DNA of 64,000 nucleotides, from the NCBI GenBank assembly GCA_903900335.1, contig CAIUMP010000044.1, forward strand, positions 98,686-162,685, read 5' to 3'. Below the pieces are notes generated by a model. The model made no database searches, had not been told where the DNA came from, and saw nothing but the letters and a program-made list of their open reading frames with translations. This stretch comes from an uncultured Ignavibacteriota bacterium (lineage in GTDB: Bacteria; Bacteroidota; Ignavibacteria; Palsa-1295). The position numbers and the translations under genes were made by a program. Shown piece after piece: positions 22,357 through 36,984 of the stretch (within the stretch, counting starts at the first letter, position 1; the number at the start of each line of letters is the position of its first letter).

Positions 22357-22470
22357 ACGGAATGGGGTGAACGGGGTTTATGTTCATCAAACAAGAAGCG
22401 GATTTTTAATCCGCCTTTACCTTGTGTTTTTAGCAATTTGTAATTACACCACCGGTACGTTCGAGAGACT

Positions 22471-22968: not shown

Positions 22969-22992
22969 CGCAGGCCCTACGAGGGCCTGCTG

Positions 22993-25900
22993 ATGCGATT
23001 GCCAAAACACCTAATGAGCGATGAACGGGAACGTGTGCGTGTGTATATTATGATGAAACGAGTAGTTTGTCTTTGCCTTGTCTTTCTGCTTCAGCAATGG
23101 TCGTTCTCTCGCTCCGCTCACGCACAGGATCAGCACCTGTTCGATAGTCTTCATGCAGCCTTCGCGTTTGCAACCCAGGACACCACCCGCAGTGACATTC
23201 TCGGCAAGCTCGCTGGTGCGTTAGAGGACATCGATACGGCGACCGCGATGAGCTACGCGACGCAGTCGATGCATTTCGCCGAAGCTGCGCACGACAGTCG
23301 CCGCATTGCACGATTCGACTTGTTCCTTGCACATCGTTACTCGAACGCGGGCCTTTATGATAGCGCTCGCTCACGTTTACTCGATGCGCTGAAGCATGCC
23401 GAAGAGCTGAACGACTCCACTATCATGGCGACGGTCTTCAGTCAATTGGGTCGGAATGACATGGAGGTTGGGAAGTATCAGGAAGCCCTCAACTACTTCC
23501 TAAAGGATCTTGACTTTGCATTGCATCGTCGAGACGCCGCAGCGATCGGAAATGCCTACAACGATCTCGGCTGCATCTACTTGTATCAGTTCATGCCGAC
23601 AAATGCATTACGCTATCTCCGGCTTGCATTGCAATACGCAGAGCGCACGAAAGACACGCGCTTGGCCGCCCACATTTACAACAATATCGGGCTTAGCTTC
23701 AACGATACGATCGGCGTCATTCTGCATTACAAAGAGAATCTAGACAGTTCTCTGCTCTATTTCCGCAAGGCGGTTGCACTGTATTCTGAGACAGACGAGC
23801 ATTACACTCGTGCCCGCGTACTCGGAAATATGGGCGATATTTTCGAAAGGCAACACCTGCTGGACAGTGCCCTCTCGTATGATCGGCAGGCGATCTACAT
23901 GCACGAGAGTGTTGGGATCGCATCTACCTACATGGCAGCAGCGTATGCACAGCTGGGCAACCTATTCCTACGAATTCGCCATACCGATAGCGCATTCCAC
24001 TACTTGCTATTGGCCCGTGACATTGACCAACGGATCGGAGCGCGTCGGGGGTTATACTACCATTATATTGATCTTTCGAGAGCCTACGCTCAATCGGGCG
24101 ACTATAAGCAGGCATACGAGTACCTCGGGCTCGGTGCATCGCTGCACGACTCTCTATACAATGTAGATAAGAGCCGTGTGTTCTCCGAGATGGAGACAAA
24201 GTACCAGACCAGCAAGAAGGAGAAGGAAATTGCCGCCCAGGATCAGGAGATCCGTCAGCAGCGAGTAGTAAACTACGCGGTGATGGGAATCGCCGGGGTG
24301 TTGTGTCTTGTCGCACTCATCATTTATCGTAATGATCGGCACAAGCAGCGGGTCAACCGTGAGCTTGCCAAGGCAAAGGAACGCGCGGAAGCTAGCGAGT
24401 TGCTCGAGAAGCAATTCCTCGCGAATATGAGTCACGAGATTCGAACGCCGATGAACGCCGTGCTGGGGATGACTACGCTCCTGCTCGAAACCACTCTGAC
24501 CACAAAGCAACGCGATTATCTGGAAGCAATTGCCGCTTCGGCCGATAACCTGCTCATCATTATTAACGACATTCTTGATCTCTCCAAACTTCAAGCTGGA
24601 AAAATGGAGTTGGAGCGTATCCCATTCCGATTACACGACGTAACTCGTCATGTCGTGGACATGATGCATTTCAAAGCGGAGGCCAAGCACCTCGATCTCA
24701 CAGAGGATTTTGACGAGTCCATGCCAGCTGTTGTTATCGGTGATCCCGCGAGACTCACTCAGATACTGGTGAATTTGGCAGGCAATGCGATCAAATTCAC
24801 CCCGAATGGCTCCGTGACGATCCACATATCAGCAACCGCGGTAGGCGCAGATCGTAAAATGAATGTCCGAATCGCCGTTCGCGACACTGGTATCGGTATT
24901 GCTGCCGAGAAGCTCTCCACCATTTTCGACTCCTTCTCACAGGCGGATGCCGAGACTTCGCGAAAGTACGGCGGTACCGGCCTGGGTCTCGCAATATCCA
25001 GAACGCTCGTTGAGCTGCAGGGCGGAAGCATCGGCGTGACCAGCGAACTCGGCAAAGGATCGGAATTCGCGTTCACAATACCTTACGAGGTTACCAGCGA
25101 GGAAGTGCTGACGGAGAGTGAAACACCACCTGTTACCGAGACCATCTCATTAGAGGGCCTCCGCGTCCTACTGGTGGAGGACAACGAGTATAATCAGATC
25201 GTCCTTGCGGACACGCTCCGCAATGTCATTCCTGACGTCGCGCTAGAGATCGCATCAAACGGCCGCGAAGCCATCGCGATCATTCACACGCTTCCATTCG
25301 ACATCGTCCTCATGGATGTTCAGATGCCGGAAATGGATGGAATCGAAGCAACGAAGTATATCCGGGCCCATTTGGGCCGCGGCAAACGGGATGTGCCTAT
25401 CATTGCGCTAACCGCGAGCGTGATTAAGTCCGAAATCGACCGCTGCTTCGAAGCGGGAATGAATGATTACGTTCCTAAGCCTTTCCGAAAGGATGAACTT
25501 TTGAGCGTCATCGCGAAATATTACAAGGGGCAGCCTGGGCGTGCTCCTGCAATCCCTGCGCATGCACCCGCACCTGCCGGTCCGACGGTAGTTCCGGAGG
25601 CGAAACCGGAGACTCCTAAGGCGAAGCCGGAGACTCCTAAGGCGAAACCCGTGAGCTCGGAGCCCGTACCAATTTCAGCTGCGCCGGCACCAAAGCCACC
25701 AGAACCGACCGAAACTACTTCAGCTATGCCACAACCGGAGAAGCCATCCAGTCCTGTCGCCGATCTTACTGCACTCTCAGACATCACTGGTGGTGATGCG
25801 CAGCAGTTAAAGAAGTACATTAAGATGTTCTTGGATGGCGTTCCAGGGCAACTCGAGACGGTCGCGGTCGCGCTTGAGGCTAACGATTACGATAGTGCTC

Positions 25901-26085
25901 GAAGAAGGATGCATGCAATGAAACCGCATCTGAAATTTATGGGTATGAAGGTCGCTGCCGGATTTGCCGACTCGATCGAGCAACTCTGCGCTGAGCAACG
26001 CGAACCGGAACGCATCAATCATGAATTTGCGCAGGTCAAGCAACAGTGTGAGTGGGCGTTCGAGGAATTGAAGGCGAAGCTGTAG
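22993..26085 (+). CDS. Hybrid sensor histidine kinase/response regulator with TPR sensor region, Pro/Lys-rich linker and C-terminal Hpt domain
   Basis: TPR-like N-terminus. TM helix (VMGIAGVLCLVALIIY). H-box SHEIRTPMNAVLGM. HATPase (DTGIGI...GGTGLGLAIS). Receiver (VLLVEDNEYNQ...DIVLMDVQMPEMDG). Hpt (HAMKPHLKFMGM). Probable start at 23050 (MMKRVV). Confidence 0.85.
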   Translation: MRLPKHLMSDERERVRVYIMMKRVVCLCLVFLLQQWSFSRSAHAQDQHLFDSLHAAFAFATQDTTRSDILGKLAGALEDIDTATAMSYATQSMHFAEAAHDSRRIARFDLFLAHRYSNAGLYDSARSRLLDALKHAEELNDSTIMATVFSQLGRNDMEVGKYQEALNYFLKDLDFALHRRDAAAIGNAYNDLGCIYLYQFMPTNALRYLRLALQYAERTKDTRLAAHIYNNIGLSFNDTIGVILHYKENLDSSLLYFRKAVALYSETDEHYTRARVLGNMGDIFERQHLLDSALSYDRQAIYMHESVGIASTYMAAAYAQLGNLFLRIRHTDSAFHYLLLARDIDQRIGARRGLYYHYIDLSRAYAQSGDYKQAYEYLGLGASLHDSLYNVDKSRVFSEMETKYQTSKKEKEIAAQDQEIRQQRVVNYAVMGIAGVLCLVALIIYRNDRHKQRVNRELAKAKERAEASELLEKQFLANMSHEIRTPMNAVLGMTTLLLETTLTTKQRDYLEAIAASADNLLIIINDILDLSKLQAGKMELERIPFRLHDVTRHVVDMMHFKAEAKHLDLTEDFDESMPAVVIGDPARLTQILVNLAGNAIKFTPNGSVTIHISATAVGADRKMNVRIAVRDTGIGIAAEKLSTIFDSFSQADAETSRKYGGTGLGLAISRTLVELQGGSIGVTSELGKGSEFAFTIPYEVTSEEVLTESETPPVTETISLEGLRVLLVEDNEYNQIVLADTLRNVIPDVALEIASNGREAIAIIHTLPFDIVLMDVQMPEMDGIEATKYIRAHLGRGKRDVPIIALTASVIKSEIDRCFEAGMNDYVPKPFRKDELLSVIAKYYKGQPGRAPAIPAHAPAPAGPTVVPEAKPETPKAKPETPKAKPVSSEPVPISAAPAPKPPEPTETTSAMPQPEKPSSPVADLTALSDITGGDAQQLKKYIKMFLDGVPGQLETVAVALEANDYDSARRRMHAMKPHLKFMGMKVAAGFADSIEQLCAEQREPERINHEFAQVKQQCEWAFEELKAKL
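25600..25641 (+). repeat. Tandem 21-bp coding repeat (gcgaa[ag]ccggagactcctaag x2) encoding (AKPETPK)x2 in the kinase linker
   Basis: Two adjacent near-identical 21-mers in the sequence. Confidence 0.8.
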
Positions 26086-26221
26086 TAGCCAAGTGCGGTG
26101 CTGGGGAATCGGATTGCTGTAGTCTGATCCGCCGACGAACAGTGATGAATTCTTACTGCTTATTCAGGCCGACAACCTCCGGGACAAACCCACTCCCTAA
26201 TACGTTTCGGTCATCCAACAG

Positions 26222-28114
26222 ATGCCGAATATCGCCGTATCCCCCGACACCCAACCCCACGAAGGCCGCTTCAGCGCGCGCCTTCGTGACGCCGTATCGC
26301 GCCCAATCCTGACGGACGGCTCCATGTCCGCCACGCTCCATGCGGCGGGACTGACCGAGCAGCCCATCGAGCGCTACAATCTCACGCAGCCAATCGCCGT
26401 AGAGCATGTTCACCGCAGCTTCGCCGATGCCGGCGCGGAGTTGTTGATGACGAACACGGAGCACGCGAATCCGCTCACCCTTGCGCGACATTACTCGGCG
26501 GACAAAACCTACGAGATCAATCGCAAAGGCGTGTGGCTTGCACGAACTGTTGCGAACGATAACGGACTTCTCGTCGCTGCTGCGGTCGGTCCCATAGGCA
26601 AATTCCTCGCACCAATCGGCTCGCTGAAGCATGTGGATGTCCGCCGAGCATTCAACGAACAGATCCTCGCTCTCCTTGATGGCGGACCGGACTGCATCAT
26701 CCTTAAGAGCTTTATTGATCTCACCGAATTGGAGATCGCAATCGAAGAAGCACAGCGCATAGCTCCCAATCTTCCACTCATCGCACAGAAGACCTTTCCC
26801 GAGGATGGTGCTCTGCTCGCAACAGACTTCGCGCGCAAAGTTGCAGAGCGATTAAAGTCCTTCGGCTTGGCCGCCATTGGGACCAATGGCACCGTCGGTC
26901 CGAACCGGATGCTCTCGATCATTCAAGCATTCGCAATTCCCGGAATCGCAATCACCGCACAGCCGGATATTGGTATCCCGACGCTCGTTGATGGACGACC
27001 AACCTATCATGCAACGCCGGAATATCTCGGGCAGAGCACGAAGCGCCTTGTCGAGGCAGGTGTGTCGATCATCGGTGCGTATGGCGGTGCAACGCCGGAG
27101 CACATCCGCGCGATTCGTGATGCTATTGCGGGTGTGAGTGCTGGTGAGATCAAGGTGCAAGAGATTACCGTCAAAGCTGAGGTGAAGAGCGGTCACGCGA
27201 GCGCAGAGAAGTATTCGCAATTCAAGCAGAACCTCGGCAAGAAATTCTTATCTACCGTCGAACTTGATGTCCCGCGCGGACTCGATATGTCCAGCGTGCT
27301 AGAAGGCGCATCCTATCTCGCGAAGGCTGGTATTGACGCCGTGAATATCTCTGATGGTGCCCGTGCGCGTCTGCGCATGAGTCCGATAACGATCAGCCAT
27401 CTCGTGCAAACGACGTGCGGCATTGAAGCCATAAGTCACTTCGCCTGTCGCGATAGGAATATGGTCGGGCTGCAATCCGAGTTGCTGGGCGCGGAAGCAC
27501 TTGGCGTTCGCAATATCCTCTGCGTCACTGGCGACCCTGCGCAGATCGGCGATTACCCGTATGCCACAAGCGTCTATGATATCGATGCTATCGGTCTCAT
27601 CCGTGCCGTCAAGTCCATGAACGAAGGCTGCGATTTGATGGGCAACCCAATCTCCGGCGGCACTCTCAATTGCACGCACTTCATGATCGCCTGCGGATCG
27701 AATCCTGTTGCGGAAGATATGGAGCGCGAACTCAGTCGCATGGAGCGCAAGATCGGTGAAGGCTGCGAGGTTATCTTCACGCAACCTCTCTTCGAGATCG
27801 AATCGCTCGCCAAGTTTGTCGATGCTATACGTCCGTTTCGCGGATCATCGCGCATCATGCTTGGCATCCTGCCGCTTCGAAGCAAGCGCCACGCGGAATT
27901 CTTGCATTATGAAGTGCCGGGCATGTCCATCCCCGATTGGATTCACGCGCGCATTAGCAGGAAGACGAGCATTGAAGAGCAGAGCAAGGAAGGTATCGCC
28001 ATCTGTGTGGAGTTCTTGAAAGAAGCCAAGTCGCTTGTCGATGGCGTGTATCTGATGCCGCCGTTTAAGAAGTATGACATGGCGGTGGACATCCTTGAAA
28101 AGATAGGAGCATAA
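26222..28114 (+). CDS. Bifunctional homocysteine S-methyltransferase / 5,10-methylenetetrahydrofolate reductase
   Basis: N-terminal HMT/Pterin-independent methyltransferase region (ILTDGSMSATLHAAGL). C-terminal MTHFR region (...STVELDVPRGLDM...GVRNILCVTGD...). Single ORF with no internal stop. Confidence 0.7.
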   Translation: MPNIAVSPDTQPHEGRFSARLRDAVSRPILTDGSMSATLHAAGLTEQPIERYNLTQPIAVEHVHRSFADAGAELLMTNTEHANPLTLARHYSADKTYEINRKGVWLARTVANDNGLLVAAAVGPIGKFLAPIGSLKHVDVRRAFNEQILALLDGGPDCIILKSFIDLTELEIAIEEAQRIAPNLPLIAQKTFPEDGALLATDFARKVAERLKSFGLAAIGTNGTVGPNRMLSIIQAFAIPGIAITAQPDIGIPTLVDGRPTYHATPEYLGQSTKRLVEAGVSIIGAYGGATPEHIRAIRDAIAGVSAGEIKVQEITVKAEVKSGHASAEKYSQFKQNLGKKFLSTVELDVPRGLDMSSVLEGASYLAKAGIDAVNISDGARARLRMSPITISHLVQTTCGIEAISHFACRDRNMVGLQSELLGAEALGVRNILCVTGDPAQIGDYPYATSVYDIDAIGLIRAVKSMNEGCDLMGNPISGGTLNCTHFMIACGSNPVAEDMERELSRMERKIGEGCEVIFTQPLFEIESLAKFVDAIRPFRGSSRIMLGILPLRSKRHAEFLHYEVPGMSIPDWIHARISRKTSIEEQSKEGIAICVEFLKEAKSLVDGVYLMPPFKKYDMAVDILEKIGA

Positions 28115-28124
28115 ATAGATCACG

Positions 28125-29066
28125 ATGGATGCTCCGCGAATAGGGATAGTGTTAGTTAACCTCAATAGTTATGAGGATACTGCCGTTTGCCTTCGCTCGT
28201 TAGCAACGATCTCGTATTCGAACTTTGAAGTCATCGTCGTCGATAACGGCTCGAGAGATAACTCCGGCGCTCGATTGCGCGAGGAATTTCCGGCAGTCAC
28301 ACATATCCGCGCGGAAGAGAACTTGGGCTTCACTGGCGGGAATAACATTGGCGTCACCCACGCGGTAGAGAACAAGTGCGATCATGTTCTCTTGCTGAAC
28401 AATGATACAATTGTTACTCCCGGCTTCTTAGAGCCGCTGGTTGCAAGGCTTGAATCGGATAAGAAGATCGCAGCCGTTAGTGGAAAGATTTACTACGCAC
28501 CTCAAGCACGCGGCGGGCAATCGGATGTATTGTGGTACGCCGGTTGTTTCCGCAAGTGGCACATGGGGTATCATCACTATGGCGTCGAGGAGAAGGACGC
28601 AGGCAAGTATGAAACGCCGCGGGAGATTCCGTATGCCTCCGGTTGCCTGATGCTCATGCGCGGTGATGTCATTCGACAGATCGGCGCACTCTCCTCCGAG
28701 TTCTTCATCTACTGGGAAGAAGCCGATTGGTGCCACCGTGCGCGCGATGCCGGGTACATCTGCATGTACGAACCGAAGAGCATCATCTATCATAATTTCA
28801 AAAGCGCCGCGCTCGGACACGAGACGCCGTTCCACATGTACATGCAGTATCGCAACGCGTTCATCTATGCGAAGAAGCATTATCATGGACTCGAAGCGTT
28901 GCAGTATTGGCTGTTCTATCCGATCTATATCGCGAACCGCATCTACCTCGATCTCCGCGCAAGGAACTTCCGCGCCGCGCGAGCAACGCTCTGGGGCGTG
29001 ATAGATTACTTCAAAGGCTATCGCGGAATGCAAGGCCTAAAAGAGCGCGGCTTCTTGAAGGGATGA
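28125..29066 (+). CDS. Family 2 glycosyltransferase
   Basis: IGIVLVNLNSYEDTAVCLRSL...FEVIVVDNGSRDNS GT-A signature. Confidence 0.8.
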   Translation: MDAPRIGIVLVNLNSYEDTAVCLRSLATISYSNFEVIVVDNGSRDNSGARLREEFPAVTHIRAEENLGFTGGNNIGVTHAVENKCDHVLLLNNDTIVTPGFLEPLVARLESDKKIAAVSGKIYYAPQARGGQSDVLWYAGCFRKWHMGYHHYGVEEKDAGKYETPREIPYASGCLMLMRGDVIRQIGALSSEFFIYWEEADWCHRARDAGYICMYEPKSIIYHNFKSAALGHETPFHMYMQYRNAFIYAKKHYHGLEALQYWLFYPIYIANRIYLDLRARNFRAARATLWGVIDYFKGYRGMQGLKERGFLKG

Positions 29067-29072
29067 CCCCCT

Positions 29073-29100
29073 TCATCATTCATAATTCATCATTCATAAT
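29073..29100 (+). repeat. Tandem 2 x 14-bp motif TCATCATTCATAAT immediately upstream of the epimerase start codon (copy 1)
   Basis: Exact tandem duplication followed by TTCCCC, 11 nt before the ATG at 29112. Same element found inverted at 47931..47958. Confidence 0.85.
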
Positions 29101-29111
29101 TTCCCCGTTCG

Positions 29112-30107
29112 ATGCCCACAACACTCGTCACTGGCGCTGCCGGATTTATCGGTTCTCATGTCGTCGATGCACTGATCGAACGCGGACACGATGTCGTCGC
29201 GCTCGACGATCTATCCGGCGGCTTCGTCGATAATGTCAATCCGCGCGCGACGTTCGTCGAAGCGAGTTGTGTCGATCATGCGCGGCTTGCGGCGCTCTTT
29301 AACGAGCACGCGTTCGATTACGTGTATCATCTCGCCGCGTATGCCGCCGAGGGCTTGTCGCATTTTATCAAGCGATTCAATTACACGAACAACGTCATCG
29401 GCTCCGTCAATCTCATCAACGAGGCGGTGAAGCACGACGTGAAGCGGTTTATCTTCACGAGTTCGATTGCCGTCTATGGCAAAAACCAACTGCCGATGCG
29501 CGAGGACCTCGTGCCTGCGCCGGAGGATTCGTATGGCATCGCGAAGTACGCTGTCGAACTCGATCTCAAGGCATCGCACGAAATGTTCGGATTGGATTAC
29601 GTGATTTTTCGCCCGCATAATGTCTATGGCGAGCGGCAGAACACCGGCGATAAGTACCGCAACGTCATCGGCATTTTTATGAACCAGTCGCTGGCCGGTG
29701 AACCGTACACTATCTTCGGCGACGGCGAGCAAAAGCGCGCGTTCTCCTACATCGGCGACATCGCGCCTATCCTTGCTGACAGCGCAACGCACGATGGTGC
29801 GCGCAACGAAATCTTCAACGTCGGCGCGGACTCCGTCTATACCGTGAACCAACTCGCAACGGAAGTGATGACCGCGATGGGTGTGCAAACGGAGATCAAG
29901 CATCTCCCCGCCCGCAACGAAGTAGTCGATGCCTGGAGCGACCACTCGAAAGTCCAGCGCGTCTTCGGCACCAGCGCCGAAACGCCGCTCTCTGTTGGAC
30001 TCAAACGCATGGGCGATTGGGTTCGCGCCTCCGGCGTGCGCGCCTCGAAGCCCTTCGAGGGGATCGAGATTGTAAAGAATTTGCCGGGAAGTTGGAAAGT
30101 TTCATAA
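29112..30107 (+). CDS. NAD-dependent epimerase/dehydratase (UDP-sugar 4-epimerase-like)
   Basis: LVTGAAGFIGSHVVDAL Rossmann motif. YxxxK (YGIAKY) catalytic motif. Confidence 0.8.
   Translation: MPTTLVTGAAGFIGSHVVDALIERGHDVVALDDLSGGFVDNVNPRATFVEASCVDHARLAALFNEHAFDYVYHLAAYAAEGLSHFIKRFNYTNNVIGSVNLINEAVKHDVKRFIFTSSIAVYGKNQLPMREDLVPAPEDSYGIAKYAVELDLKASHEMFGLDYVIFRPHNVYGERQNTGDKYRNVIGIFMNQSLAGEPYTIFGDGEQKRAFSYIGDIAPILADSATHDGARNEIFNVGADSVYTVNQLATEVMTAMGVQTEIKHLPARNEVVDAWSDHSKVQRVFGTSAETPLSVGLKRMGDWVRASGVRASKPFEGIEIVKNLPGSWKVS
30005..30098 (+). repeat. Direct repeat DR-L: 3' end of epimerase gene, duplicated at 30705..30798
   Basis: First 36 nt identical, remainder about 88 % identical to 30705..30798. 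Brackets the BrnT/BrnA cassette. Confidence 0.85.
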
Positions 30108-30123
30108 CCACCACATTGATCGA

Positions 30124-30447
30124 GTGATGTCCGAGGCTGAATTATATCGGTTAGTTGAGCAGTGCGACGGATTCGACTGGGACGAGGGAAATTCCACGAA
30201 GAATTGGATCAAGCACCGCGTCTCGATGGACGAATGCGAACAGGCATTCGGAAACGCGCCTCTTCTCGCCCCCGATTACTCTCATTCCATCGAAGAGCGG
30301 AGACTTGTTGCACGCAGCAAAACCGATTCAGGCCGATGCCTGTTCATATCATTTACAGTGAGAGGTACGCTGATTCGCGTCATCTCCGCACGACCGATGG
30401 ATAGAAGGGAACGAGCAGACTATGAAGAAATTGAAAGAGCATCCTAA
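30124..30447 (+). CDS. brnT: BrnT-family (DUF497) type II toxin
   Basis: FDWDEGNSTKNWIKHRVSMDECEQAF...IRVISARPMDRRERADYEE matches the BrnT pattern. Confidence 0.75.
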   Translation: MMSEAELYRLVEQCDGFDWDEGNSTKNWIKHRVSMDECEQAFGNAPLLAPDYSHSIEERRLVARSKTDSGRCLFISFTVRGTLIRVISARPMDRRERADYEEIERAS

Positions 30448-30703
30448 ATTCAAGAGCGAAGACGAGGAACGGGAGTTCTGGTCCACGCACTCTTCTATGG
30501 ATTACATCGATTGGAGCAAAGCAAAACGTGCTGTGCTCCCGAAACTTGCTCGCACCGAACGTGTGATTCCCCTCCGCGTTTCCGAGAAGACGTACCAGCA
30601 GCTTACTACTCTTGCAAACCGACAAAAAAAGCCGCTCCAAAATCTCGCCAAACAACTCATTCGCGACCGCGCAAATGAGTTAGTAGCCGGAGCGAAGGCC
30701 TGA
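30422..30703 (+). CDS. brnA: BrnA-family antitoxin (ribbon-helix-helix)
   Basis: Overlaps brnT by 26 nt. EDEEREFWSTHSSMDYIDWSKAK...IPLRVSEKTYQQLTTLANRQKKPLQNLAKQLI matches the BrnA pattern. Confidence 0.7.
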   Translation: MKKLKEHPKFKSEDEEREFWSTHSSMDYIDWSKAKRAVLPKLARTERVIPLRVSEKTYQQLTTLANRQKKPLQNLAKQLIRDRANELVAGAKA

Positions 30704-30704
30704 T

Positions 30705-30798
30705 ACGCATGGGCGATTGGGTTCGCGCCTCCGGCGTGCGTGCATCGAGGCCCTTCGAGGGCATCGAGATCGAGAAGAATTTGCCGGGGAGTTGGAAG
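30705..30798 (+). repeat. Direct repeat DR-R: degenerate copy of the epimerase 3' end
   Basis: See 30005..30098. Would encode RMGDWVRASGVRASRPFEGIEIEKNLPGSWK but is not part of an ORF. Confidence 0.85.
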
Positions 30799-30853
30799 AG
30801 AACCTGAACCGGGATTTTGAGATTGATGGGATGGCTACACTTCGACACCAGCA

Positions 30854-31591
30854 ATGAACAAGACTGAAATAATATCTGAGATTAGGAGAATTGCCTCGGA
30901 GTTGGCTGCCCAAGGGAAGCCTCTCGGCAAGGCTAAGTTCGAATCCATGTCTGGGATTAAATTTCATGATTGGTACCCACACTTTTGGGTTCGTTGGGGT
31001 GACGCATTGAAGGAGGCGGGCTATACGGCCAACGCCTTCCAGGTCCGCATTGAAGACGAAGCGCTGATTCCTTTTTACGCATTGCTAATACGCGATCTTG
31101 GTCATTGGCCCGTTACTGGGGAAGTGCGTAAACGTTGTGAGGATGACTCAGCTTTTCCTTCTCACTCTGTCATGGGATTCGCACGTTTAGGAGGAAAGAG
31201 TGAGCTGGCGAGAATGCTTGTTGCCTTTTGTGAAGCCAATTCAGGGTGGAACGACGTAAGAGAAATTGCTGAGAAACAAGTTGAGGATAGAATCCAGCCT
31301 ATTGAAGACCGTTCGAATCGAACAGACGATCAAATTGATGGACACGTCTATCTGATTAAGTCAGGGAAACACTACAAGATTGGCAAAACGAACGATCTTG
31401 GGAGGAGGGGCAAAGAAATTGCATTAGAGTTACCTGAAGCCAGCAGTGTTATCCATTCCATTCAGACAGACGATCCGAGCGGAATCGAATCGTACTGGCA
31501 TCGGCGATTCAATGATCGACGGAAAAACGGAGAGTGGTTTGAATTAAGTGCGGCTGACGTTCGCGCTTTCCGACGAAGAAAGTTTATGTAG
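30854..31591 (+). CDS. Protein with two homing-endonuclease-associated (HNH_repeat-like) repeats and a C-terminal T5orf172/GIY-YIG-like domain
   Basis: N-terminal repeats ending ...WGDALKEAGY and ...ARLGGKSELARML. C-terminal GHVYLIKSGKHYKIGKTNDLGRRGKEI...GEWFELSAADV typical of T5orf172 (MUG113) domains. Confidence 0.6.
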   Translation: MNKTEIISEIRRIASELAAQGKPLGKAKFESMSGIKFHDWYPHFWVRWGDALKEAGYTANAFQVRIEDEALIPFYALLIRDLGHWPVTGEVRKRCEDDSAFPSHSVMGFARLGGKSELARMLVAFCEANSGWNDVREIAEKQVEDRIQPIEDRSNRTDDQIDGHVYLIKSGKHYKIGKTNDLGRRGKEIALELPEASSVIHSIQTDDPSGIESYWHRRFNDRRKNGEWFELSAADVRAFRRRKFM

Positions 31592-31596
31592 ACAGA

Positions 31597-32403
31597 TTAG
31601 TACCGCTCTTTTTCAAAAGTTAGATCGAAGCAATTGAATTTTGGTCGAGCCCGAAATAAGTCGACAGGGTACTTTCGGCTTCGAATTTTATTGAGTAGTA
31701 ATTCTTCATCAGCCTTGCTGATTCTCATTCCGAGGTAGATTGACTCGATTGCATTTTCCGGAATGGGGATGATCTCACTTGCTCCTTTCAGCAATATGAG
31801 CCTCCATTCCTTCTCATATGCCCAATCGGAATGTTTAACTTTGAAGGGGCCAAACCAGTCATCTATCGACAGGTTCGGATCATATGGATTGATCACGGGG
31901 CATTCCTTGTGATATTCGATTGGTGTAAGAACCACCTGCGCATGACTTCGCAAAGCCTCATAAAGGACATTCGTCCTATAGCCTATGCAGAACCCAGAAT
32001 GATTGAGCCCATAGTGGGACCACATCAGGATGTTGGACTCCTGAGCAGCGAGTGAGAATGCCCCTGTTTCTTTAGCATTCGTTTCGGCTTGCTTCTGATC
32101 GATCGCTTGGGCTTCTATCAGATTTATAGAAATCTTTTCTATAAACTTCTTCCAATCCTGCACTATCTGGCTATCCGGTCGAGGAGGAGAAAACAATACT
32201 GAGTTTTGTCTTCTCATGTGTTCAAGTATTTGATCGGGCGTACTGTTGCTACTATGGTACAATACCGGCAGTGCAGTGTCGAAGGGGTCATTGAATTTTT
32301 CAGGAGGAGTAAAATACATCTCTTCGAGCGACTTGAGATGGTAACCAGCACTATCGAAGTGCCTATACTTAAATAAGACTCGAGGTTCCTTATTCTTTCC
32401 CAT
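31597..32403 (-). CDS. DUF2971-family protein
   Basis: N-terminal VLFKYRHFDS...LEEMYFTPPEKFNDPFD matches the DUF2971 signature. Low-GC gene convergent with the T5orf172 gene. Confidence 0.55.
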   Translation of the reverse strand: MGKNKEPRVLFKYRHFDSAGYHLKSLEEMYFTPPEKFNDPFDTALPVLYHSSNSTPDQILEHMRRQNSVLFSPPRPDSQIVQDWKKFIEKISINLIEAQAIDQKQAETNAKETGAFSLAAQESNILMWSHYGLNHSGFCIGYRTNVLYEALRSHAQVVLTPIEYHKECPVINPYDPNLSIDDWFGPFKVKHSDWAYEKEWRLILLKGASEIIPIPENAIESIYLGMRISKADEELLLNKIRSRKYPVDLFRARPKFNCFDLTFEKERY

Positions 32404-32432
32404 TGCTTTCTTCCATAACTACGTGGACTGCC

Positions 32433-33193
32433 CTACACCACCACCAACTCAATCGGGCAGTGATCGCTGCCCAGGATGTCGGGGAGGATCGTGGCGTTGC
32501 GGATGCGGGGGACGAAGCCTTCGGTCACCATGAACATGTCGATGCGCCAGCCCACATTGCGATCGCGTGATTTGCTGATTTGATCCCAGTAGGTGTATTG
32601 CTCCGGCTCCTGATTGTACGTGCGGAAAATATCGACGTAGCCCATGTCGGTGATCTTGTCGAGCCACGCGCGCTCCTCCGGCAAGAAGCCGGAGGTCTTC
32701 GACCACTCCTTTGGCTTTGCCACATCAATCTCACGATGCGCGGTGTTGTAATCGCCGCAGATGACAAGCTCTCGTCCGTCGGCGCGGAGGTCCTGCCATT
32801 GCTCGAGCAGGTGATCGTACAAATCGAGTTTATACCGAACGCGCTCCGGCCCGCGACCGCCGTTGGGGAAGTAAATGTTGTAGAGAATGAAATCGCCGTA
32901 GTCGGCAGAGATAACGCGACCTTCTGAGTCGAAGCGCGTTGCGCCGCAACCAGCGGTGATACTGACGGGCTTCTGCTTCGTGTAGATCGCAACACCAGAG
33001 TAACCCTTCTTCTCAGCACTTACAAAGTGCGACTGATACCCGGCGATATCAAGCAGCTCCGGCCCGAGCTGTTCGCGCTGAGCTTTCGTCTCCTGCAAAC
33101 ACATCACATCGGGATTTTCCCGCGCGATAAAATCGAGAAACCCCTTCTTCTGAGCGGCACGAATACCGTTAACATTCCAACAGAGAATACGCA
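32433..33193 (-). CDS. xthA: Exodeoxyribonuclease III
   Basis: MRILCWNVNGIRA start and conserved ExoIII motifs (LQETK; GDYNTAHREIDV; SDHCPIE). Track ORF extends to 33284, but the conserved start Met is at 33193. Confidence 0.85.
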
Positions 33194-33261
33194 TGGGTTG
33201 GTCAACTCTCCGCCGCGCCGTTTTGTTCGAGCCTCTACTTCTTCGCCGAAACAAATCACCC

Positions 33262-34464
33262 GTGAACTTCGCACTACTCCACACGCACCCCCGGTTCCGC
33301 CGCCTTTGGCTGGCGGATATTCTGTCGCAGACGGGTTCGCAGGTGTCGTCCGTTGCGTTGCTTATCGTCGTCTTCCGCTTGCACTCTTCGACAGCGGAAG
33401 TAGCGGGCCTTGTTTTTTGCCAAACGATACCAGCGGTGATCTTTGGTCTCTATGCCGGAGCAATCATTGACAGGTTTTCGAAGAAGCCGCTTTTGGTTGG
33501 GTCCGATCTGATACGCGCTATCACCATCGCATCAATTCCATTCGTGTCGGACTTGTGGGCAATTTATCTGCTCGCGTTTCTTACCTCAACCGCAACCGCT
33601 GTTTTTCAGCCGGCGCGGCAAGCCGTCATACCAGAGTTGGTTGAGGAAAGTGAGCGCGTGAATGCCAACGCGCTTTCGAGCCTTACGTTCGGCACGATGC
33701 TCTTTCTCGGGCCAGCGATCGGGGGTGCCATTGCTGGCTTCTGGAGCGTCAGTGCAGCCTTCTACATTGATAGCATTACCTTCCTAACGAGCGCCCTGTT
33801 CCTTAGCGGGATTCCGTTGCCTCACATGAAAACAGAGAGCACATCTACGCTGAAGAGTCTGACGAAAGATATTGGCCTGGGTATGCGGTATGTTTGGGCG
33901 CACCCCGTCATCTCCTATGTCTTCCTGCTGATGTTCGTTGGGAATGTGTCGCTGGGGTTCTGGTTTCCTGTGCTCCCCTCGTTCAACGCAAGCTTTTTGC
34001 ATGGCGACAATTTCACATTTGGCCTGATCTATTCCGCCTTCGGTCTTGGAAGTCTGCTTGGCGGACCGTTTGCACCTTCGGTTGTGAAGCGTTTTACGAA
34101 GGGGCGTATCCTATACGCGACTATCGCACTCGACGCATTGTGCTTCATCGTATTCAGCAGGAGTCCTTCGCTATATTTCGCACTCGGCATCTCGGTTATC
34201 TGGGGAATGGTCGTCGTGGTGATGTTTGTGGTCTATGAAACGATGATGCAGAACATCGTCGAACCGGACTTTCGTGGACGAGTATTCAGCATGGGCTCGA
34301 TTCAATTTAACGGAGGGATCTTGAGCGCACAGTTGATAGCAATTAAGGTAGCGGGCGTGCTCCGGCCAGAGGAGATCTTTCTGTACACAGGCTCCATTTA
34401 TTTGTCGGTCGTGCTGTTGGCGTCGGCTCGGAAGAGTTTTCGGGTATTGATGGACGTCGAGTAA
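33262..34464 (+). CDS. MFS transporter
   Basis: 12-TM pattern. N-terminal FRRLWLADILSQTGSQV typical of MFS. The track's ATG at 33193 overlaps xthA, so the start is probably an alternative codon near 33262. Confidence 0.55.
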   Translation: MNFALLHTHPRFRRLWLADILSQTGSQVSSVALLIVVFRLHSSTAEVAGLVFCQTIPAVIFGLYAGAIIDRFSKKPLLVGSDLIRAITIASIPFVSDLWAIYLLAFLTSTATAVFQPARQAVIPELVEESERVNANALSSLTFGTMLFLGPAIGGAIAGFWSVSAAFYIDSITFLTSALFLSGIPLPHMKTESTSTLKSLTKDIGLGMRYVWAHPVISYVFLLMFVGNVSLGFWFPVLPSFNASFLHGDNFTFGLIYSAFGLGSLLGGPFAPSVVKRFTKGRILYATIALDALCFIVFSRSPSLYFALGISVIWGMVVVVMFVVYETMMQNIVEPDFRGRVFSMGSIQFNGGILSAQLIAIKVAGVLRPEEIFLYTGSIYLSVVLLASARKSFRVLMDVE

Positions 34465-34477
34465 GGTCTCGCACGGA

Positions 34478-35125
34478 CTATGCTGCAATTGCAAGTGCCG
34501 CAAGATCGAGGTATGCGGAACCAACTTCGCATATGTTTTCAATCCAACCCACGCGGAGCATCCACGCAAACCGAGCCTGCCAATATTTTGCTAAATCGTG
34601 ATGTGGACTCTCGCCTTCTTGCCGCGCCTTCTCGTTGCATGCGAATAGCGCCTCAGCAAGGGGCGGCAAACCAACGCCCGCACGAAGCTCATCAACGTGC
34701 GCCTCGTCTTGAATGGGACTTGTGGTGAGAACCCCGTCGGCATTCATATCCATCTGAGTGCCATAGCGTTGGCGCTTACCGGAGAATACTAATACACGGT
34801 CTTCGAGCATCGCGATGTGCGATAGGGGGACACCGCGCGAATCCGACTGCAGAAGAGCCACTACCATCCTTTGAAGTTGGGGCATCGAGATCGAATGCAT
34901 CACGATGTACCATGCCGCCCGCTGGATGGCCTCACCATCTCGATCGCGATCGGGCCATCCATGCTCATCCAATAGTCTCTCAAGGACGGCCCCATTGCGA
35001 TTGTGCAACGCTTCCATTTCGGGATCGTAGCCACCGAACAACTTGCCCGCAACCCTGAGCTTTTCCCGAAGTGCGAAATCCTCCGCGAAAAGCACAGGAA
35101 GTTCTGCAAATGGACTCACCTGCAC
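34478..35125 (-). CDS. Hypothetical protein (215 aa)
   Basis: Clean ORF with no recognised motif. Confidence 0.35.
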   Translation of the reverse strand: MQVSPFAELPVLFAEDFALREKLRVAGKLFGGYDPEMEALHNRNGAVLERLLDEHGWPDRDRDGEAIQRAAWYIVMHSISMPQLQRMVVALLQSDSRGVPLSHIAMLEDRVLVFSGKRQRYGTQMDMNADGVLTTSPIQDEAHVDELRAGVGLPPLAEALFACNEKARQEGESPHHDLAKYWQARFAWMLRVGWIENICEVGSAYLDLAALAIAA

Positions 35126-35133
35126 TTAAATTG

Positions 35134-36489
35134 TCAATGTTCCGACGATCGCTTACCGAGCACGACCGGCACATCTACCGCCACGCCAGCGCGCATCACC
35201 TTCATGATCACCTTATCTCCCGGATGATGCTTGGCAAGTGCATTCGTGTAATCGTAGATGTTCTTGATCGCCATCTCATCGAACTTGATCACGATGTCTC
35301 CCTTTTGAAGACCTGCTGCTTTGGCCGGAGAGTTGTCGCGAATTTCGTCGATGCGAAGGCCATCTCCATCATAACCGTAATCCGGAACGCCACCGACATA
35401 CACGCCAAATGACGCAGCCTTCTGTTCTGTATCACCGGCAGGGCGCGTAAATGCGATCTTATCCGGACGATTCGCGAGATTCAAAACCACTGACTCTGCG
35501 AACTGCGCAACCTTTGCTTCGCCAACCACATTGATCTTATCGCGTGTGTCGGTGGCCTTGTGATAGTCATCATGGAAGCCCGTGAAGAGGAAGAGCACAG
35601 GAACATCCTTCGCATAGAATTTCGCGTGGTCGCTTGGGCCCGTTCCGGTCTGGAAGTATTTCAAGTGAAGCGGCTTCGATTCCGGAAGCGATGTAATGAG
35701 ATCCTTCCACGAAGGCGAAGTCCCCATCCCCTGCACGATGAGCGTGTTGCTGTCATTCATTCGCCCGATCATGTCCATGTTGACCATCGCTTGAACATTC
35801 TTGAGCGGCACAAGCGGGTGTTCAGTGAAATATGCGCTGCCAAAGAGACCTTCCTCTTCGCCAGAGAAGGCGATGAAGAGAACACTTCGTTTGAGGGTAT
35901 ATCGCTCTTTCGAAAGATGTTCGGCGATCTCGAGCAACCCGGATGTTCCGCTTGCATTGTCGTCAGCGCCGTAGTGGATCGCATGGACTTTATCGAGGGC
36001 AAATGGACCTCCCATCCCCAGGTGATCGTAGTGCGCACCAATAATGACCGTTTGGTCCGCAAGCTGCGGATCTTCACCACGAATGTAGCCGACAATGTTC
36101 ATTCCATGCGTGAAGCCATGCTTGGTTGTGTCCATGGCGTGTTCGGAGAAATCGAACGGCTGCATGAACACATGTGCGGAGTCGATAGGGGAAAGCTGCA
36201 AGCGATGGAATTCGGATGCGATGTACCGCGCCGCTTTTGAAGCCCCCGGTTCACCTGTGCGTCGCCCTTCGAGCGAATCGCTGGCAAGAATGTCGAGCCT
36301 CTCGCCAATATCCTTAGCAGTAATGGACCATACGGTCTTCGCTCCTCCAGAGGATGCCGTCTCTTGCGCACGCGCTGTGAGCGTAAATCGAAGATTTAGA
36401 ATGCCTGCCGCCGCGACGACCAAGAGGATGGTGGTTCGGCGGAGAGTCCTGGTGCGCGACCGATTAGTGTTGTCCATTGTGCGCTGCAA
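35134..36489 (-). CDS. Secreted M28-family aminopeptidase with C-terminal PDZ domain
   Basis: Signal peptide. M28 motifs (IGAHYDHLG; AFSGEEEGLFGS). C-terminal PDZ-like GLQKGDIVIKFDEMAI. Confidence 0.7.
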   Translation of the reverse strand: MQRTMDNTNRSRTRTLRRTTILLVVAAAGILNLRFTLTARAQETASSGGAKTVWSITAKDIGERLDILASDSLEGRRTGEPGASKAARYIASEFHRLQLSPIDSAHVFMQPFDFSEHAMDTTKHGFTHGMNIVGYIRGEDPQLADQTVIIGAHYDHLGMGGPFALDKVHAIHYGADDNASGTSGLLEIAEHLSKERYTLKRSVLFIAFSGEEEGLFGSAYFTEHPLVPLKNVQAMVNMDMIGRMNDSNTLIVQGMGTSPSWKDLITSLPESKPLHLKYFQTGTGPSDHAKFYAKDVPVLFLFTGFHDDYHKATDTRDKINVVGEAKVAQFAESVVLNLANRPDKIAFTRPAGDTEQKAASFGVYVGGVPDYGYDGDGLRIDEIRDNSPAKAAGLQKGDIVIKFDEMAIKNIYDYTNALAKHHPGDKVIMKVMRAGVAVDVPVVLGKRSSEH

Positions 36490-36973: not shown

Positions 36974-36984
36974 AACTTGTTGTA

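What the first reader, a model, noticed from the sequence alone, without database searches (positions are those of the whole stretch)
30005..30798. BrnT/BrnA cassette inserted with a 94-bp duplication of the epimerase 3' end
The last 94 bp of the epimerase gene (30005..30098) recur at 30705..30798 with a handful of substitutions. The 606 bp between the copies are exactly the brnT-brnA pair. The gene pair is lower in GC than the flanks. This is a clear footprint of insertion or recombination that regenerated the host gene's 3' end.
Basis: seen in the sequence. Interest (0 to 1): 0.6.

Follow-up and report, generated by a model that had tools for sequence, protein, structure and literature searches.

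The report
Toxin-antitoxin insert with duplicated gene end
A small toxin-antitoxin gene pair sits just after a sugar-epimerase gene in an uncultured soil bacterium, followed by a spare 100-base copy of that gene's end; this is a real but fairly ordinary scar of horizontal gene transfer, of a kind so far described mainly for restriction-modification genes.

Summary
Window 30005-30098 recurs at 30705-30798 (85/94 identical). It is the only repeat of 40 nt or more in the 64 kb. Both copies read in frame to their own stop codon. Between them lie an intact BrnT toxin and BrnA antitoxin gene.

The closest relative (L162, epimerase 99% aa) has one copy of the gene end and no BrnTA. Copy 2 plus 26 nt downstream aligns to that genome's gene end and flank, so copy 2 is the displaced ancestral end. 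Three independent assemblies share the structure. No integrase, transposase, tRNA or terminal inverted repeats are nearby.

Copy 1 carries six lineage-specific changes, all distal to position 39. This suggests that about 30044-30704 came from another lineage, by one homologous crossover and one illegitimate junction.

The closest known phenomenon is 'insertion with long target duplication' of restriction-modification genes. I found eight more such structures in the fetched loci. Four hold recognised toxin genes. Their borders vary, which argues against site-specific integration.

The exact mechanism is unresolved.

The parts
29112..30107 (+). NAD-dependent sugar epimerase/dehydratase gene (331 aa), intact; left core gene of the variable interval
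   Evidence: PF01370, E 5.7e-55. 99% aa and 93.5% nt identity to L162. The metH-like / GT2 / epimerase order is conserved in L002-L010.
30005..30098 (+). Repeat copy 1, the functional 3' end of the epimerase (reads on to TAA at 30105-30107)
   Evidence: 85/94 identical to copy 2 and 85/94 to L162.
30044..30107 (+). Distal part of copy 1 plus the tail codons: carries all six copy-1-specific substitutions and a different tail (..IVKNLPGSWKVS*). Inferred to come from a donor lineage.
   Evidence: Window-specific changes are 2 in 149 nt upstream against 6 in 55 nt here (Fisher p=0.005; the breakpoint was chosen after seeing the data).
30108..30123 (+). 16-nt spacer between the epimerase stop and the brnT start. 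No terminator and no room for a separate promoter.
   Evidence: Its similarity to the clade-typical flank is not significant (p=0.08).
30124..30447 (+). brnT, ribonuclease-type toxin gene (gene callers start it at ATG 30127, giving 106 aa)
   Evidence: PF04365 BrnT_toxin, 71.3 bits against a cut-off of 34.5, covering the full profile 1-77/77. Weak match to the solved toxin 7vd7. Gene call seen.
30422..30703 (+). brnA, CopG/RHH-type antitoxin gene, overlapping brnT by 26 nt
   Evidence: PF12441 CopG_antitoxin, 67.3 bits against a cut-off of 28, covering profile positions 1-78/79.
30705..30807 (+). Repeat copy 2: relic of the ancestral epimerase 3' end (RMGDWVRASGVRASRPFEGIEIEKNLPGSWKRT*), starting 1 nt after the brnA stop
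   Evidence: 98/103 identical to the L162 gene end. Its tail resembles that of P0001/L162 (..IEKNLPGSWRRT).
30808..30833 (+). Ancestral flank downstream of the epimerase, shared with L162 and L174
   Evidence: Window 30706-30833 aligns to L162 10895-11023 at 94.6%. Alignment A1.
30854..32403 (.). Rest of the variable islet: T5orf172/MUG113 gene (30854-31591, +) and DUF2971 gene (31597-32403, -), low GC and absent from L162
   Evidence: DUF2971 matches the PADLOC defence candidate PDC-S31 (E 2e-49).
32433..33284 (-). Exonuclease III-like gene (xth), the right core gene of the variable interval, convergent with the epimerase
   Evidence: PF03372. 91.5% identical to L162 14115-14895.

Best explanation
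This is the scar of a recombinational acquisition with no mobile-element machinery.

The interval between the convergent core genes epimerase and xth is a variable islet. A DNA tract of about 660 bp entered from another lineage of the same clade. It carried the last 60 nt or so of that lineage's epimerase gene, a 16-nt spacer and an intact brnT-brnA operon.

Its left end recombined homologously inside the 39 nt that both alleles share (30005-30043). Its right end, 1 nt after the brnA stop, had no homologous partner. It was joined illegitimately to the resident chromosome 103 nt upstream of the resident epimerase stop. This most plausibly happened on a sister chromatid or through a one-ended, homology-facilitated event.

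The result adds DNA and replaces nothing. The epimerase keeps a full 331-aa frame with a donor-type tail. The resident gene end and its flank survive downstream as a non-coding relic. BrnTA is probably transcribed from within or through the epimerase 3' end.

Shown:
- the duplication itself;
- an intact TA pair;
- a single-copy empty site in relatives;
- orthology of copy 2 with the sister genome's gene end;
- absence of mobility genes;
- variable borders in independent events.

Inferred:
- the donor origin of distal copy 1;
- the nature of the two junctions;
- how brnTA is expressed.
For: Empty site:
- L162 (epimerase 99% aa) and L001-L010 each have one copy of the gene end and no adjacent BrnTA.
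- Copy 2 plus its flank aligns to the L162 gene end plus flank at 94.6%. Copy 2 matches L162 at 98/103, copy 1 at 88/103.

Distinct histories of the two copies:
- With L162 and L174a as outgroups, copy 1 has 6 private changes, 5 of them at third codon positions and all at or beyond position 40. The relic has 2.
- If the duplication arose in place and the relic then drifted, copy 1 should hold about 20% of the changes. P(6 or more of 8) = 0.0012.
- The 149 nt upstream of 30044 hold only 2 window-specific changes, against 6 in the next 55 nt (p=0.005).
- Both tails stop in the same register (331 aa). That is expected for homologous alleles and has a probability of about 0.04 for random insert sequence.

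No dedicated machinery:
- There is no integrase or transposase within about 15 kb on either side.
- The nearest tRNA is 20 kb away.
- There are no inverted repeats at the cassette borders and no Rfam hit.

Independent events at the same gene end have different borders, at about -103, -60, -50, -36 and -110 nt from the stop (window, L174, L017, L021, L102).

Precedents from the literature:
- Homology-facilitated illegitimate recombination integrates linear DNA by homology at one end only (PMC3240628, abstract seen).
- Donor DNA that integrates across sister chromatids creates duplications (PMC3784515).
Against: - No donor allele (epimerase with the ..IVKNLPGSWKVS tail followed by brnTA and no relic) was found. 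The nearest other BrnT is only 66% identical and sits in an unrelated context without repeats.
- The statistics rest on 8 substitutions and a breakpoint chosen after seeing the data.
- One site (position 93) is a change shared by copies 1 and 2 against both outgroups. This hints at common ancestry within the window's lineage.
- Total divergence of the first 94 nt of copy 1 from L162 (9/94) is not significantly above the gene-body rate. Only when the hypervariable tail is included does it become significant (15/103, p=0.001).
- The data do not exclude the mirror reading, in which TA is resident and the relic arrived with the islet.
- Whether the host is naturally competent is unknown.
Confidence: 0.45

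Rival explanations
1. Mirror reading. BrnTA was already resident next to the epimerase, and copy 1 is native. The incoming DNA was the neighbouring islet (T5orf172-DUF2971), which brought the last 103 nt and the flank of its donor's epimerase as an unused homology arm. It was joined illegitimately just after brnA. Replacement by ordinary double crossover would have deleted the TA pair, and addiction (post-segregational killing) would remove such recombinants. Only additive junctions with a relic would then survive.
For: - It is topologically the simplest one-anchor event.
- Synonymous differences between copy 1 and L162 (5 in 32 codons) equal my estimate of the gene-body rate. Copy 2 is, if anything, closer to L162 than that estimate.
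- In L162 the functional xth tail equals the window's tail, while the relic has a foreign tail (..IELALLRLA*). This fits 'the relic arrived with the islet'.
- It would explain why addictive cargo is common in such structures: 4 of the 8 further cases hold recognised toxin genes.
Against: - Window-specific changes jump from 2 in 149 nt to 6 in 55 nt exactly where copy 1 becomes private. This is not expected if the whole gene is native.
- The flank after copy 2 is the clade-typical one (L162, L174a, L174b). Copy 1 lacks it.
- This reading needs an earlier, separate TA insertion.
- Non-addictive cargo (GNAT, Uma2, an unknown ORF) shows the same architecture.
Confidence: 0.2
2. True 'insertion with long target duplication'. 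Unrelated DNA carrying BrnTA was inserted at a staggered break, or by a replication template switch. This duplicated 94 nt of the resident gene, and both copies were identical at birth.
For: - The architecture is the one described for restriction-modification genes: repeats over 30 bp of variable length, no mobility genes, and a single copy at the empty site (PMC2853133).
- L002 (87 nt, 97.7%) and L174 (99 nt, spanning the stop codon and flank) look like plain target duplications.
- Position 93 is shared by both window copies against both outgroups.
Against: - The functional copy has 6 private changes and the supposedly neutral relic has 2 (P=0.0012).
- Copy 2 groups with L162 rather than with copy 1 (98/103 against 88/103).
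- The insert would have to supply a stop codon in exactly the native register (probability about 0.04). L017 shows the same pattern.
Confidence: 0.12
3. Campbell-type integration. A small non-replicating circle, made of the epimerase 3' segment plus BrnTA, looped out of a donor and integrated by a single homologous crossover within the shared 39 nt. This duplicated the homologous segment.
For: - It predicts exactly what is seen: copy 1 is resident on the left and donor on the right, and copy 2 carries the resident distal part.
- The repeat starts at the circle junction, right after the brnA stop.
- Direct repeats allow the circle to form again.
Against: - Only about 100 bp of 90%-identical homology is available for the crossover.
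- There is no evidence of circles.
- The two copy-2-specific changes at positions 37 and 45 would have to be later mutations.
- The first circle still needs an illegitimate event.
- The same TA was not found with the same gene end anywhere else.
Confidence: 0.12
4. Remnant of a site-specific integrative element that targeted the epimerase 3' end. The repeats would be attL and attR, and everything except the addictive TA pair was later deleted.
For: - Integrative elements are known to regenerate the 3' end of their target gene and to pile up in tandem. This is established knowledge about tRNA-targeting and gene-end-targeting islands.
- L174 has two successive copies of the gene end.
Against: - There is no integrase in the window region or in relatives.
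- Borders differ between independent events at the same gene.
- Only 16 nt and 1 nt separate the TA genes from the repeats, which leaves no room for arm sites.
Confidence: 0.05
5. Assembly chimera of two strains, or a tandem duplication that predates the insertion.
For: The source is a metagenome. A short-read contig (L175) breaks inside the shared 36-nt block.
Against: - The copies differ at 9 of 94 positions.
- The brnA/copy-2 junction lies outside any shared k-mer, and an independently assembled contig reproduces it at 100% identity (L081).
- No relative has two copies at these borders without cargo.
Confidence: 0.02

Closest known systems
[quoted passage not shown] 2000, Gene 259:99; Furuta, Abe and Kobayashi 2010, PMC2853133)
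   Same: - A compact selfish or addictive gene cassette is flanked by direct repeats of tens to about 100 bp.
- The repeat is single-copy at the empty site of a related genome.
- There are no transposase, integrase or inverted repeats.
- Repeat length varies from event to event.
   Different: - The cargo here is a type II toxin-antitoxin pair whose toxin is an RNase. The authors' suggestion that DNA breakage by the restriction enzyme drives the insertion cannot apply.
- The two copies here do not look like one duplicated target. The functional copy carries private substitutions and its own tail.
- I found no paper extending the phenomenon to TA cassettes.
Homology-facilitated illegitimate recombination (PMC3240628) and transformation-triggered interchromatid integration that yields duplications (Johnston et al. 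2013, PMC3784515)
   Same: - One end of the incoming DNA is anchored by homology in a conserved gene, and the other end is joined without homology.
- Donor DNA bridging two chromatids gives a duplication around the donor-specific part.
   Different: - These are laboratory observations in competent model species, and the duplications described were 100-900 kb.
- Here the event is inferred from sequence in an uncultured Kapabacteria/Ignavibacteriota lineage.
- The duplicated segment is only about 100 nt, and the donor is unknown.
Integrative elements that insert into the 3' end of tRNA or protein genes and regenerate it (att duplication; non-autonomous CIME-type remnants). Cited from general knowledge.
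   Same: - The host gene stays intact because the incoming DNA supplies a replacement 3' end.
- The old end remains as a direct repeat.
- Tandem accretion is possible, as in L174.
   Different: - There is no recombinase and no fixed crossover point.
- The borders differ in every independent event.
- The cargo is just one operon.
BrnT/BrnA type II toxin-antitoxin system (Pfam PF04365 / PF12441)
   Same: - Toxin-first order.
- Overlapping genes of about 100 aa.
- Full-length matches to both Pfam families.
   Different: - Only 66% identical to the nearest other BrnT in 5.8 billion proteins.
- There is no space for a promoter of its own downstream of the epimerase stop.
- Activity is untested.
MGE-free 'TA islets' in chromosomes (Belot et al. 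2026, PMC13617665)
   Same: - A TA pair sits alone between core genes with no mobility genes.
- It lies in a small variable spot that takes up cargo repeatedly.
- Spread by homologous recombination at flanking core genes is proposed.
   Different: That study proposes transposon-mediated arrival followed by streamlining, and it reports no long duplication of a flanking gene. Here the junction scar itself is preserved.

Membership tests
BrnT/BrnA type II toxin-antitoxin | First gene encodes a BrnT_toxin (DUF497, PF04365) domain protein of about 100 aa | tested here: met
   71.3 bits against a cut-off of 34.5, profile 1-77/77. Weak match to the solved toxin 7vd7.
BrnT/BrnA type II toxin-antitoxin | An antitoxin gene of the CopG/RHH type (PF12441) follows immediately downstream and overlaps or abuts the toxin gene | tested here: met
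   67.3 bits against a cut-off of 28. The genes overlap by 26 nt, at 30422-30447.
BrnT/BrnA type II toxin-antitoxin | The toxin is a ribonuclease that the antitoxin neutralises, and the operon is autoregulated | not testable with these tools
   Needs expression and toxicity assays.
Insertion with long target duplication (Furuta 2010 criteria) | Direct repeats longer than 30 bp flank an insert of less than 20 kb | tested here: met
   94-101 nt repeats, 606-bp insert.
Insertion with long target duplication (Furuta 2010 criteria) | The repeated sequence is single-copy, and the insert absent, at the same locus of a related genome | tested here: met
   L162 and L001-L010.
Insertion with long target duplication (Furuta 2010 criteria) | No other mobile-element genes or tRNA-type att site are involved | tested here: met
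Insertion with long target duplication (Furuta 2010 criteria) | The cargo contains both R and M genes | tested here: not met
   The cargo is BrnT/BrnA.
Insertion with long target duplication (Furuta 2010 criteria) | Both copies are duplicates of the one target (upstream-target, downstream-target and upstream-downstream identities are about equal) | tested here: inconclusive
   Copy 1 to L162 is 85/94, copy 2 to L162 is 90/94, copy 1 to copy 2 is 85/94. Private changes are 6 against 2. This leans against a simple duplication.
Site-specific integrative element / att duplication | A tyrosine or serine recombinase gene in or next to the element | tested here: not met
   No recombinase family was detected in the ORFs I scanned on either side: 15090-34464 in the window, plus the annotated L162 counterparts further downstream.
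Site-specific integrative element / att duplication | The same crossover border recurs in independent integrations at the same target | tested here: not met
   Borders lie at about -103, -60, -50, -36 and -110 nt from the epimerase stop in the window, L174, L017, L021 and L102.
Transposon / IS / MITE | Terminal inverted repeats and a short (under 15 bp) target duplication; a transposase in cis or trans | tested here: not met
   No inverted repeat at the cassette borders. The repeat is 94 nt or more. No other copy exists in the window.
Integron gene cassette | An attC recombination site at the 3' end of the cassette | tested here: not met
   Only 1 nt lies between the brnA stop and the relic.
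Homology-facilitated illegitimate recombination | A donor tract begins inside a homologous anchor, leaving a mosaic breakpoint in the anchor gene | tested here: inconclusive
   Window-specific changes are 2 in 149 nt against 6 in 55 nt around position 30044 (p=0.005, breakpoint chosen after seeing the data). No donor sequence is available.
Homology-facilitated illegitimate recombination | The second junction lies at a short microhomology | tested here: inconclusive
   GGCCTGAT (brnA end) against GGACTCAA (resident sequence before position -103) shares 5 of 8 bases. The donor's downstream sequence is unknown.
Homology-facilitated illegitimate recombination | The host takes up linear DNA (competence, conjugation or transduction) | not tested
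   Competence genes were not searched for; only 64 kb of the genome is available.

The most novel reading that the evidence does not exclude
Small addictive or selfish cassettes, both toxin-antitoxin pairs and the restriction-modification genes described earlier, may share a general recombinase-independent route into chromosomes. That route would leave a 40-110-nt duplicate of the neighbouring gene's end.

The association with addiction modules could arise because post-segregational killing eliminates recombinants that replace the module. Only additive junctions that leave a relic would then survive. Alternatively, a still-unknown pathway could insert linear DNA at long staggered breaks.

If either holds, these relic gene ends would be a genome-wide, datable record of how TA and RM genes enter chromosomes.
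Probability: 0.2. Interest if true: 0.7.

Novelty: new member of a known kind. Interest (0 to 1): 0.42.

Why it matters
How toxin-antitoxin pairs enter chromosomes when no mobile-element genes accompany them is still described as poorly characterised (PMC13617665). This locus preserves the junction scar. Together with the sister genomes it shows three things:
- the entry was recombinational, not site-specific;
- it kept the host gene intact by supplying or retaining a full 3' end;
- the same spot took up different cargo repeatedly, with different borders.

The same architecture turned up eight more times in only 1.5 Mb of fetched loci. Four of those cases hold recognised TA toxin genes and a fifth is a TA-like two-gene cassette.

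This suggests that the 'long target duplication' footprint known from restriction-modification genes is more general. It also suggests that it does not need a DNA-cutting cargo.

There is a practical point too: relic gene ends get called as tiny 'hypothetical proteins'. One 31-aa relic clusters with the full-length epimerases.

Tried and rejected
Searches for closer relatives or parental alleles that led nowhere:
- Exact look-ups of the epimerase, of BrnT with the GTG start, and of P0242 were not on record.
- Search for the donor: the nearest other BrnT is 66% identical. It lies tightly between a rhomboid gene and gcpE, with no repeat and no shared spacer or border sequence.
- The only homologue with an ..IVKNLP.. 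tail that I looked up (P0013) has no TA downstream.
- Search for the true empty site through T5orf172 homologues: nothing closer than 53% identity.

Ideas tested and dropped:
- That the 19 nt after the copy-1 stop are a diverged copy of the clade-typical flank. This would have made BrnTA cargo at the standard islet border. The similarity is not significant (p=0.08).
- That tail differences alone prove an allelic origin. This is weakened because the 2-4 codons before the stop are hypervariable in every copy and every homologue.

Scans that were uninformative or empty:
- The sigma-70 promoter and terminator scan gave nothing usable, and the lineage may use other promoter types.
- Rfam gave no hit.
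- PADLOC gave no hit for BrnT or BrnA.

Explanations rejected: site-specific att remnant, transposon or MITE, and integron cassette (see the membership tests); also assembly artefact.
Full report
**1. The observation**

The last part of the ORF 29112-30107 recurs 700 nt downstream.
- The ORF is an NAD-dependent epimerase/dehydratase (PF01370, E 5.7e-55).
- The repeat finder reports 29997-30097 vs 30697-30797 (101 nt, 89%).
- Base by base, 30005-30098 vs 30705-30798 is 85/94 identical.
- Both copies stay in frame and reach a stop codon at the same distance: TAA at 30105-30107 and TGA at 30805-30807. The second copy still reads RMGDWVRASGVRASRPFEGIEIEKNLPGSWKRT*.
- It is the only direct repeat of 40 nt or more in the 64-kb window.

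Between the copies lie a 16-nt spacer and two genes.
- brnT runs from 30124 or 30127 to 30447 (PF04365, 71.3 bits).
- brnA runs from 30422 to 30703 (PF12441, 67.3 bits).
- The two genes overlap by 26 nt, and brnA ends 1 nt before copy 2.

The GC argument is weak.
- BrnTA has GC 0.513, against 0.566 for the epimerase and 0.533 for the window.
- The genes just downstream are far lower, at 0.437-0.473.

The structure is reproduced at 100% identity in other assemblies.
- An ENA contig (L081, 3209 bp) spans both copies.
- A Logan contig (L175) starts inside the 36-nt block that both copies share.

**2. Organism and locus**

The nearest genomes are MAGs labelled Ignavibacteriota or Candidatus Kapaibacterium. 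No GTDB species representative has an epimerase more than 89% identical. The upstream order, metH-like gene, GT2 glycosyltransferase and epimerase, is conserved in L002-L010. What follows the epimerase differs in every genome.

The protein search found a much closer relative. P0001 is 99% identical and lies on a 341-kb ENA contig, of which 21 kb around the gene was fetched as L162. Aligning the window to L162 gives four blocks of homology:

| Window | L162 | Identity |
|---|---|---|
| 26176-30096 | 7072-10985 | 88.4% |
| 30706-30833 | 10895-11023 | 94.6% |
| 32432-33212 (xth) | 14115-14895 | 91.5% |
| 33261-38477 | 15081-20298 | 74.7% |

The interval between the convergent core genes epimerase and xth is therefore a variable islet.
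- In the window it holds BrnTA, the relic, T5orf172 and DUF2971.
- In L162 it holds five unrelated ORFs.

L162 has one epimerase 3' end and no BrnTA. So do L001-L010.

**3. Which copy is which**
- Copy 2 matches the L162 gene end at 98/103, and its flank continues the homology for 26 nt.
- Copy 1 matches L162 at 88/103 and copy 2 at 88/103.
- The P0001/L162 protein ends ..IEKNLPGSWRRT, like the relic (..IEKNLPGSWKRT). The window's functional tail is ..IVKNLPGSWKVS.
- Copy 2 is therefore the displaced ancestral end, still at its old junction with the downstream flank. Copy 1 now completes the gene.

**4. Are the copies a duplicated target, or two alleles?**

A third lineage was found by accident. 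A 31-aa 'hypothetical protein' (P0241) in the epimerase cluster turned out to be part of a 5'-truncated epimerase 3' fragment on the contig L174. That fragment is used below as the outgroup L174a.

With L162 and L174a as outgroups, the 94-nt repeat shows the following:
- 6 changes private to copy 1, at positions 40, 58, 67, 69, 85 and 94. Five are third codon positions.
- 2 changes private to copy 2, at positions 37 and 45.
- 1 change shared by both copies, at position 93.

Suppose the duplication arose in place and the relic then drifted neutrally while copy 1 stayed under selection. Copy 1 should then hold about a fifth of the changes. P(6 or more of 8) is 0.0012.

The 110 nt immediately upstream of the repeat hold only 2 window-specific changes. 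Counting 2 in 149 nt before 30044 against 6 in 55 nt after it gives p=0.005. That breakpoint was chosen after seeing the data.

Both tails stop in the same register. This has a probability of about 0.04 if the tail of copy 1 were random insert sequence.

There are caveats.
- Few sites are involved.
- The last codons are hypervariable in all homologues.
- Divergence of the first 94 nt of copy 1 from L162 is not by itself above the gene-body rate.

On balance, the tract from about 30044 through brnA looks like DNA from another lineage of the same clade.

**5. Mechanism**

Nothing points to dedicated machinery.
- No integrase or transposase lies in the ORFs scanned on either side.
- The only tRNA in the window is 20 kb away.
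- There are no terminal inverted repeats.
- There is no room for an attC site.
- There is no Rfam match.

The best-supported reading has three parts.
- The left crossover was homologous, inside the 39 nt that the two alleles share.
- The right junction was illegitimate. It lies 1 nt after the brnA stop, at position -103 of the resident gene.
- The 8 nt before each junction partner share 5 bases (GGCCTGAT against GGACTCAA).

This is homology-facilitated illegitimate recombination in outline (PMC3240628). The duplication is the expected by-product if the two ends engage different sister chromatids. That has been shown experimentally for transformation-induced merodiploids (PMC3784515).

A Campbell-type integration of a circle made of the gene end plus the TA pair predicts the same sequence pattern. 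It cannot be separated from the reading above.

The mirror reading also cannot be excluded. In it, the TA pair is resident, and the relic arrived with the T5orf172 islet. It has the attraction of explaining an association with addictive cargo. It fits the clustering of copy-1-specific changes less well.

**6. Recurrence**

Two agnostic scans of everything fetched (163 sequences, 1.5 Mb) found eight more structures of the form 'gene end, compact cassette, relic of the same gene end'. One scan worked on nucleotides. The other searched the terminal 36 aa of 1970 ORFs.

| Locus | Duplicated gene end | Repeat | Cargo |
|---|---|---|---|
| L162 | xth, 3' end | 44 nt, 98% | RelB-like + ParE |
| L017 | epimerase, 3' end | 42-47 nt | HicB-like + DUF433/DUF5615 |
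| L002 | LptF/G gene, 5' region | 87 nt, 97.7% | antitoxin-like ORF + ParE |
| L005 | BNR-repeat gene, 3' end | 109 nt, 74% | RelE-like ORF + 80-aa ORF |
| L045 | glycosyltransferase, 5' end | 92 nt, 93.5% | two overlapping unknown ORFs |
| L021 | epimerase, 3' end | 41 nt | unknown 155-aa ORF |
| L102 | epimerase, 3' end | 96 nt, 72% | GNAT acetyltransferase |
| L174 | epimerase, 3' end + stop + 35-nt flank | 99 nt | Uma2 nuclease-like gene |

- In L174, the second copy of the gene end is followed by an L162-type islet.
- The borders at the epimerase differ in every case, so the process is not site-specific.
- L174a also has a divergence breakpoint near -100 to -130 (14 private changes in 110 nt against 2 in 94 nt, p=0.007). 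Crossovers evidently pile up in the last 130 nt or so of this gene.
- The sample is biased, because the loci were chosen for containing this epimerase. The proportion of TA cargo is only indicative.

**7. Comparison with what is known**

[quoted passage not shown] The Kobayashi group described it for restriction-modification gene complexes. The repeats exceed 30 bp, there are no mobility genes, and the site is single-copy in the empty genome. The mechanism is unknown, and the authors tentatively tie it to DNA breakage by the restriction enzyme (PMC2853133).

My literature searches found no report of this for toxin-antitoxin cassettes. A 2026 study of TA acquisition calls the integration mechanisms poorly characterised. 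It proposes transposon-mediated arrival followed by streamlining and homologous spread (PMC13617665).

The TA pair itself is an ordinary, if divergent, BrnT/BrnA member.

**8. Verdict**
- It is a well-preserved scar of recombinational, machinery-free acquisition of a TA cassette at a hot variable spot.
- It is a new member, with TA cargo, of a known kind of footprint.
- It is informative for how addiction modules enter chromosomes, but not in itself surprising.
- Still unresolved: which of the two partners was incoming, whether the second junction used microhomology, and how brnTA is transcribed.

Noticed in passing
L162:13567-14170: Mirror case in the sister genome. A 44-nt copy of the xth 3' end (13567-13610, 98% to 14127-14170) lies beyond a 516-bp insert that holds a RelB-like antitoxin ORF (13674-13856) and a ParE toxin gene (13831-14103). 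The relic has its own, different tail (..IELALLRLA*), while the functional tail equals the window's.
   Followed up: yes
L017:6948-7931; L021:6958-7569; L102:5891-7596: In three unrelated MAGs (two labelled Flavobacteriales, one unlabelled metagenome contig) the orthologous epimerase also has a relic of its 3' end downstream of a small insert. The cargo is HicB-like + DUF433/DUF5615 in L017, an unknown 155-aa ORF in L021 and a GNAT acetyltransferase in L102.
   Followed up: partly
L174:271-1260: A JGI contig of the same clade has a 5'-truncated epimerase fragment (271-480). Then come a Uma2 (PF05685) nuclease-like gene and a second, frameshifted copy of the last 60 nt of the epimerase with its stop and a 35-nt flank (99-nt repeat, 86%). 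An L162-type islet follows. The first fragment was called as a 31-aa 'hypothetical protein' that clusters with the full-length epimerases.
   Followed up: partly
L002:978-1719; L005:10356-11166; L045:7353-8317: Three further cassettes are flanked by 87-109-nt direct repeats of a neighbouring gene's end. They are ParE + antitoxin-like ORF upstream of an LptF/G gene, a RelE-like pair after a BNR-repeat gene, and two overlapping unknown ORFs upstream of a glycosyltransferase. In two of these it is the 5' end of the gene that is duplicated.
   Followed up: partly
window:30854-32403: A low-GC (0.44-0.47) two-gene islet. The T5orf172/MUG113 (GIY-YIG-like) gene has no relative above 53% identity. The convergent DUF2971 gene matches the PADLOC defence candidate PDC-S31 (E 2e-49). 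This may be a small anti-phage locus.
   Followed up: partly
window:30808-30833; L162:10997-11036; L174:481-515 and 1226-1260: The flank just downstream of the epimerase stop is conserved across the clade. It consists of 3-4 roughly 10-nt units of the form ATGGGATnn. Cargo begins right after it in each allele. Whether it is a recombination or regulatory site is unknown.
   Followed up: no
window:26176-38477 vs L162: Similarity between the two sister genomes is mosaic: 88% upstream, 93.5% in the epimerase, 91.5% in xth and only 74.7% from the MFS gene onward. Synteny breaks completely upstream of 26176. Recombination among lineages appears to be pervasive here.
   Followed up: no
window:16533-18410: A 625-aa protein with an N-terminal TIR_2 domain and many TPR repeats. 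It may be defence- or signalling-related and is unconnected to the finding.
   Followed up: no
L162:1377-1985 and 6457-7046: The sister genome has two DUF433/DUF5615 pairs (TA-like) within 7 kb. One sits between DsbD and the metH-like gene, in sequence that has no counterpart in the window.
   Followed up: no
L022:7189-7259 and 10265-10335: A perfect 71-nt direct repeat 3 kb apart in an Elusimicrobia MAG, plus a third 31-nt copy. I did not examine it.
   Followed up: no
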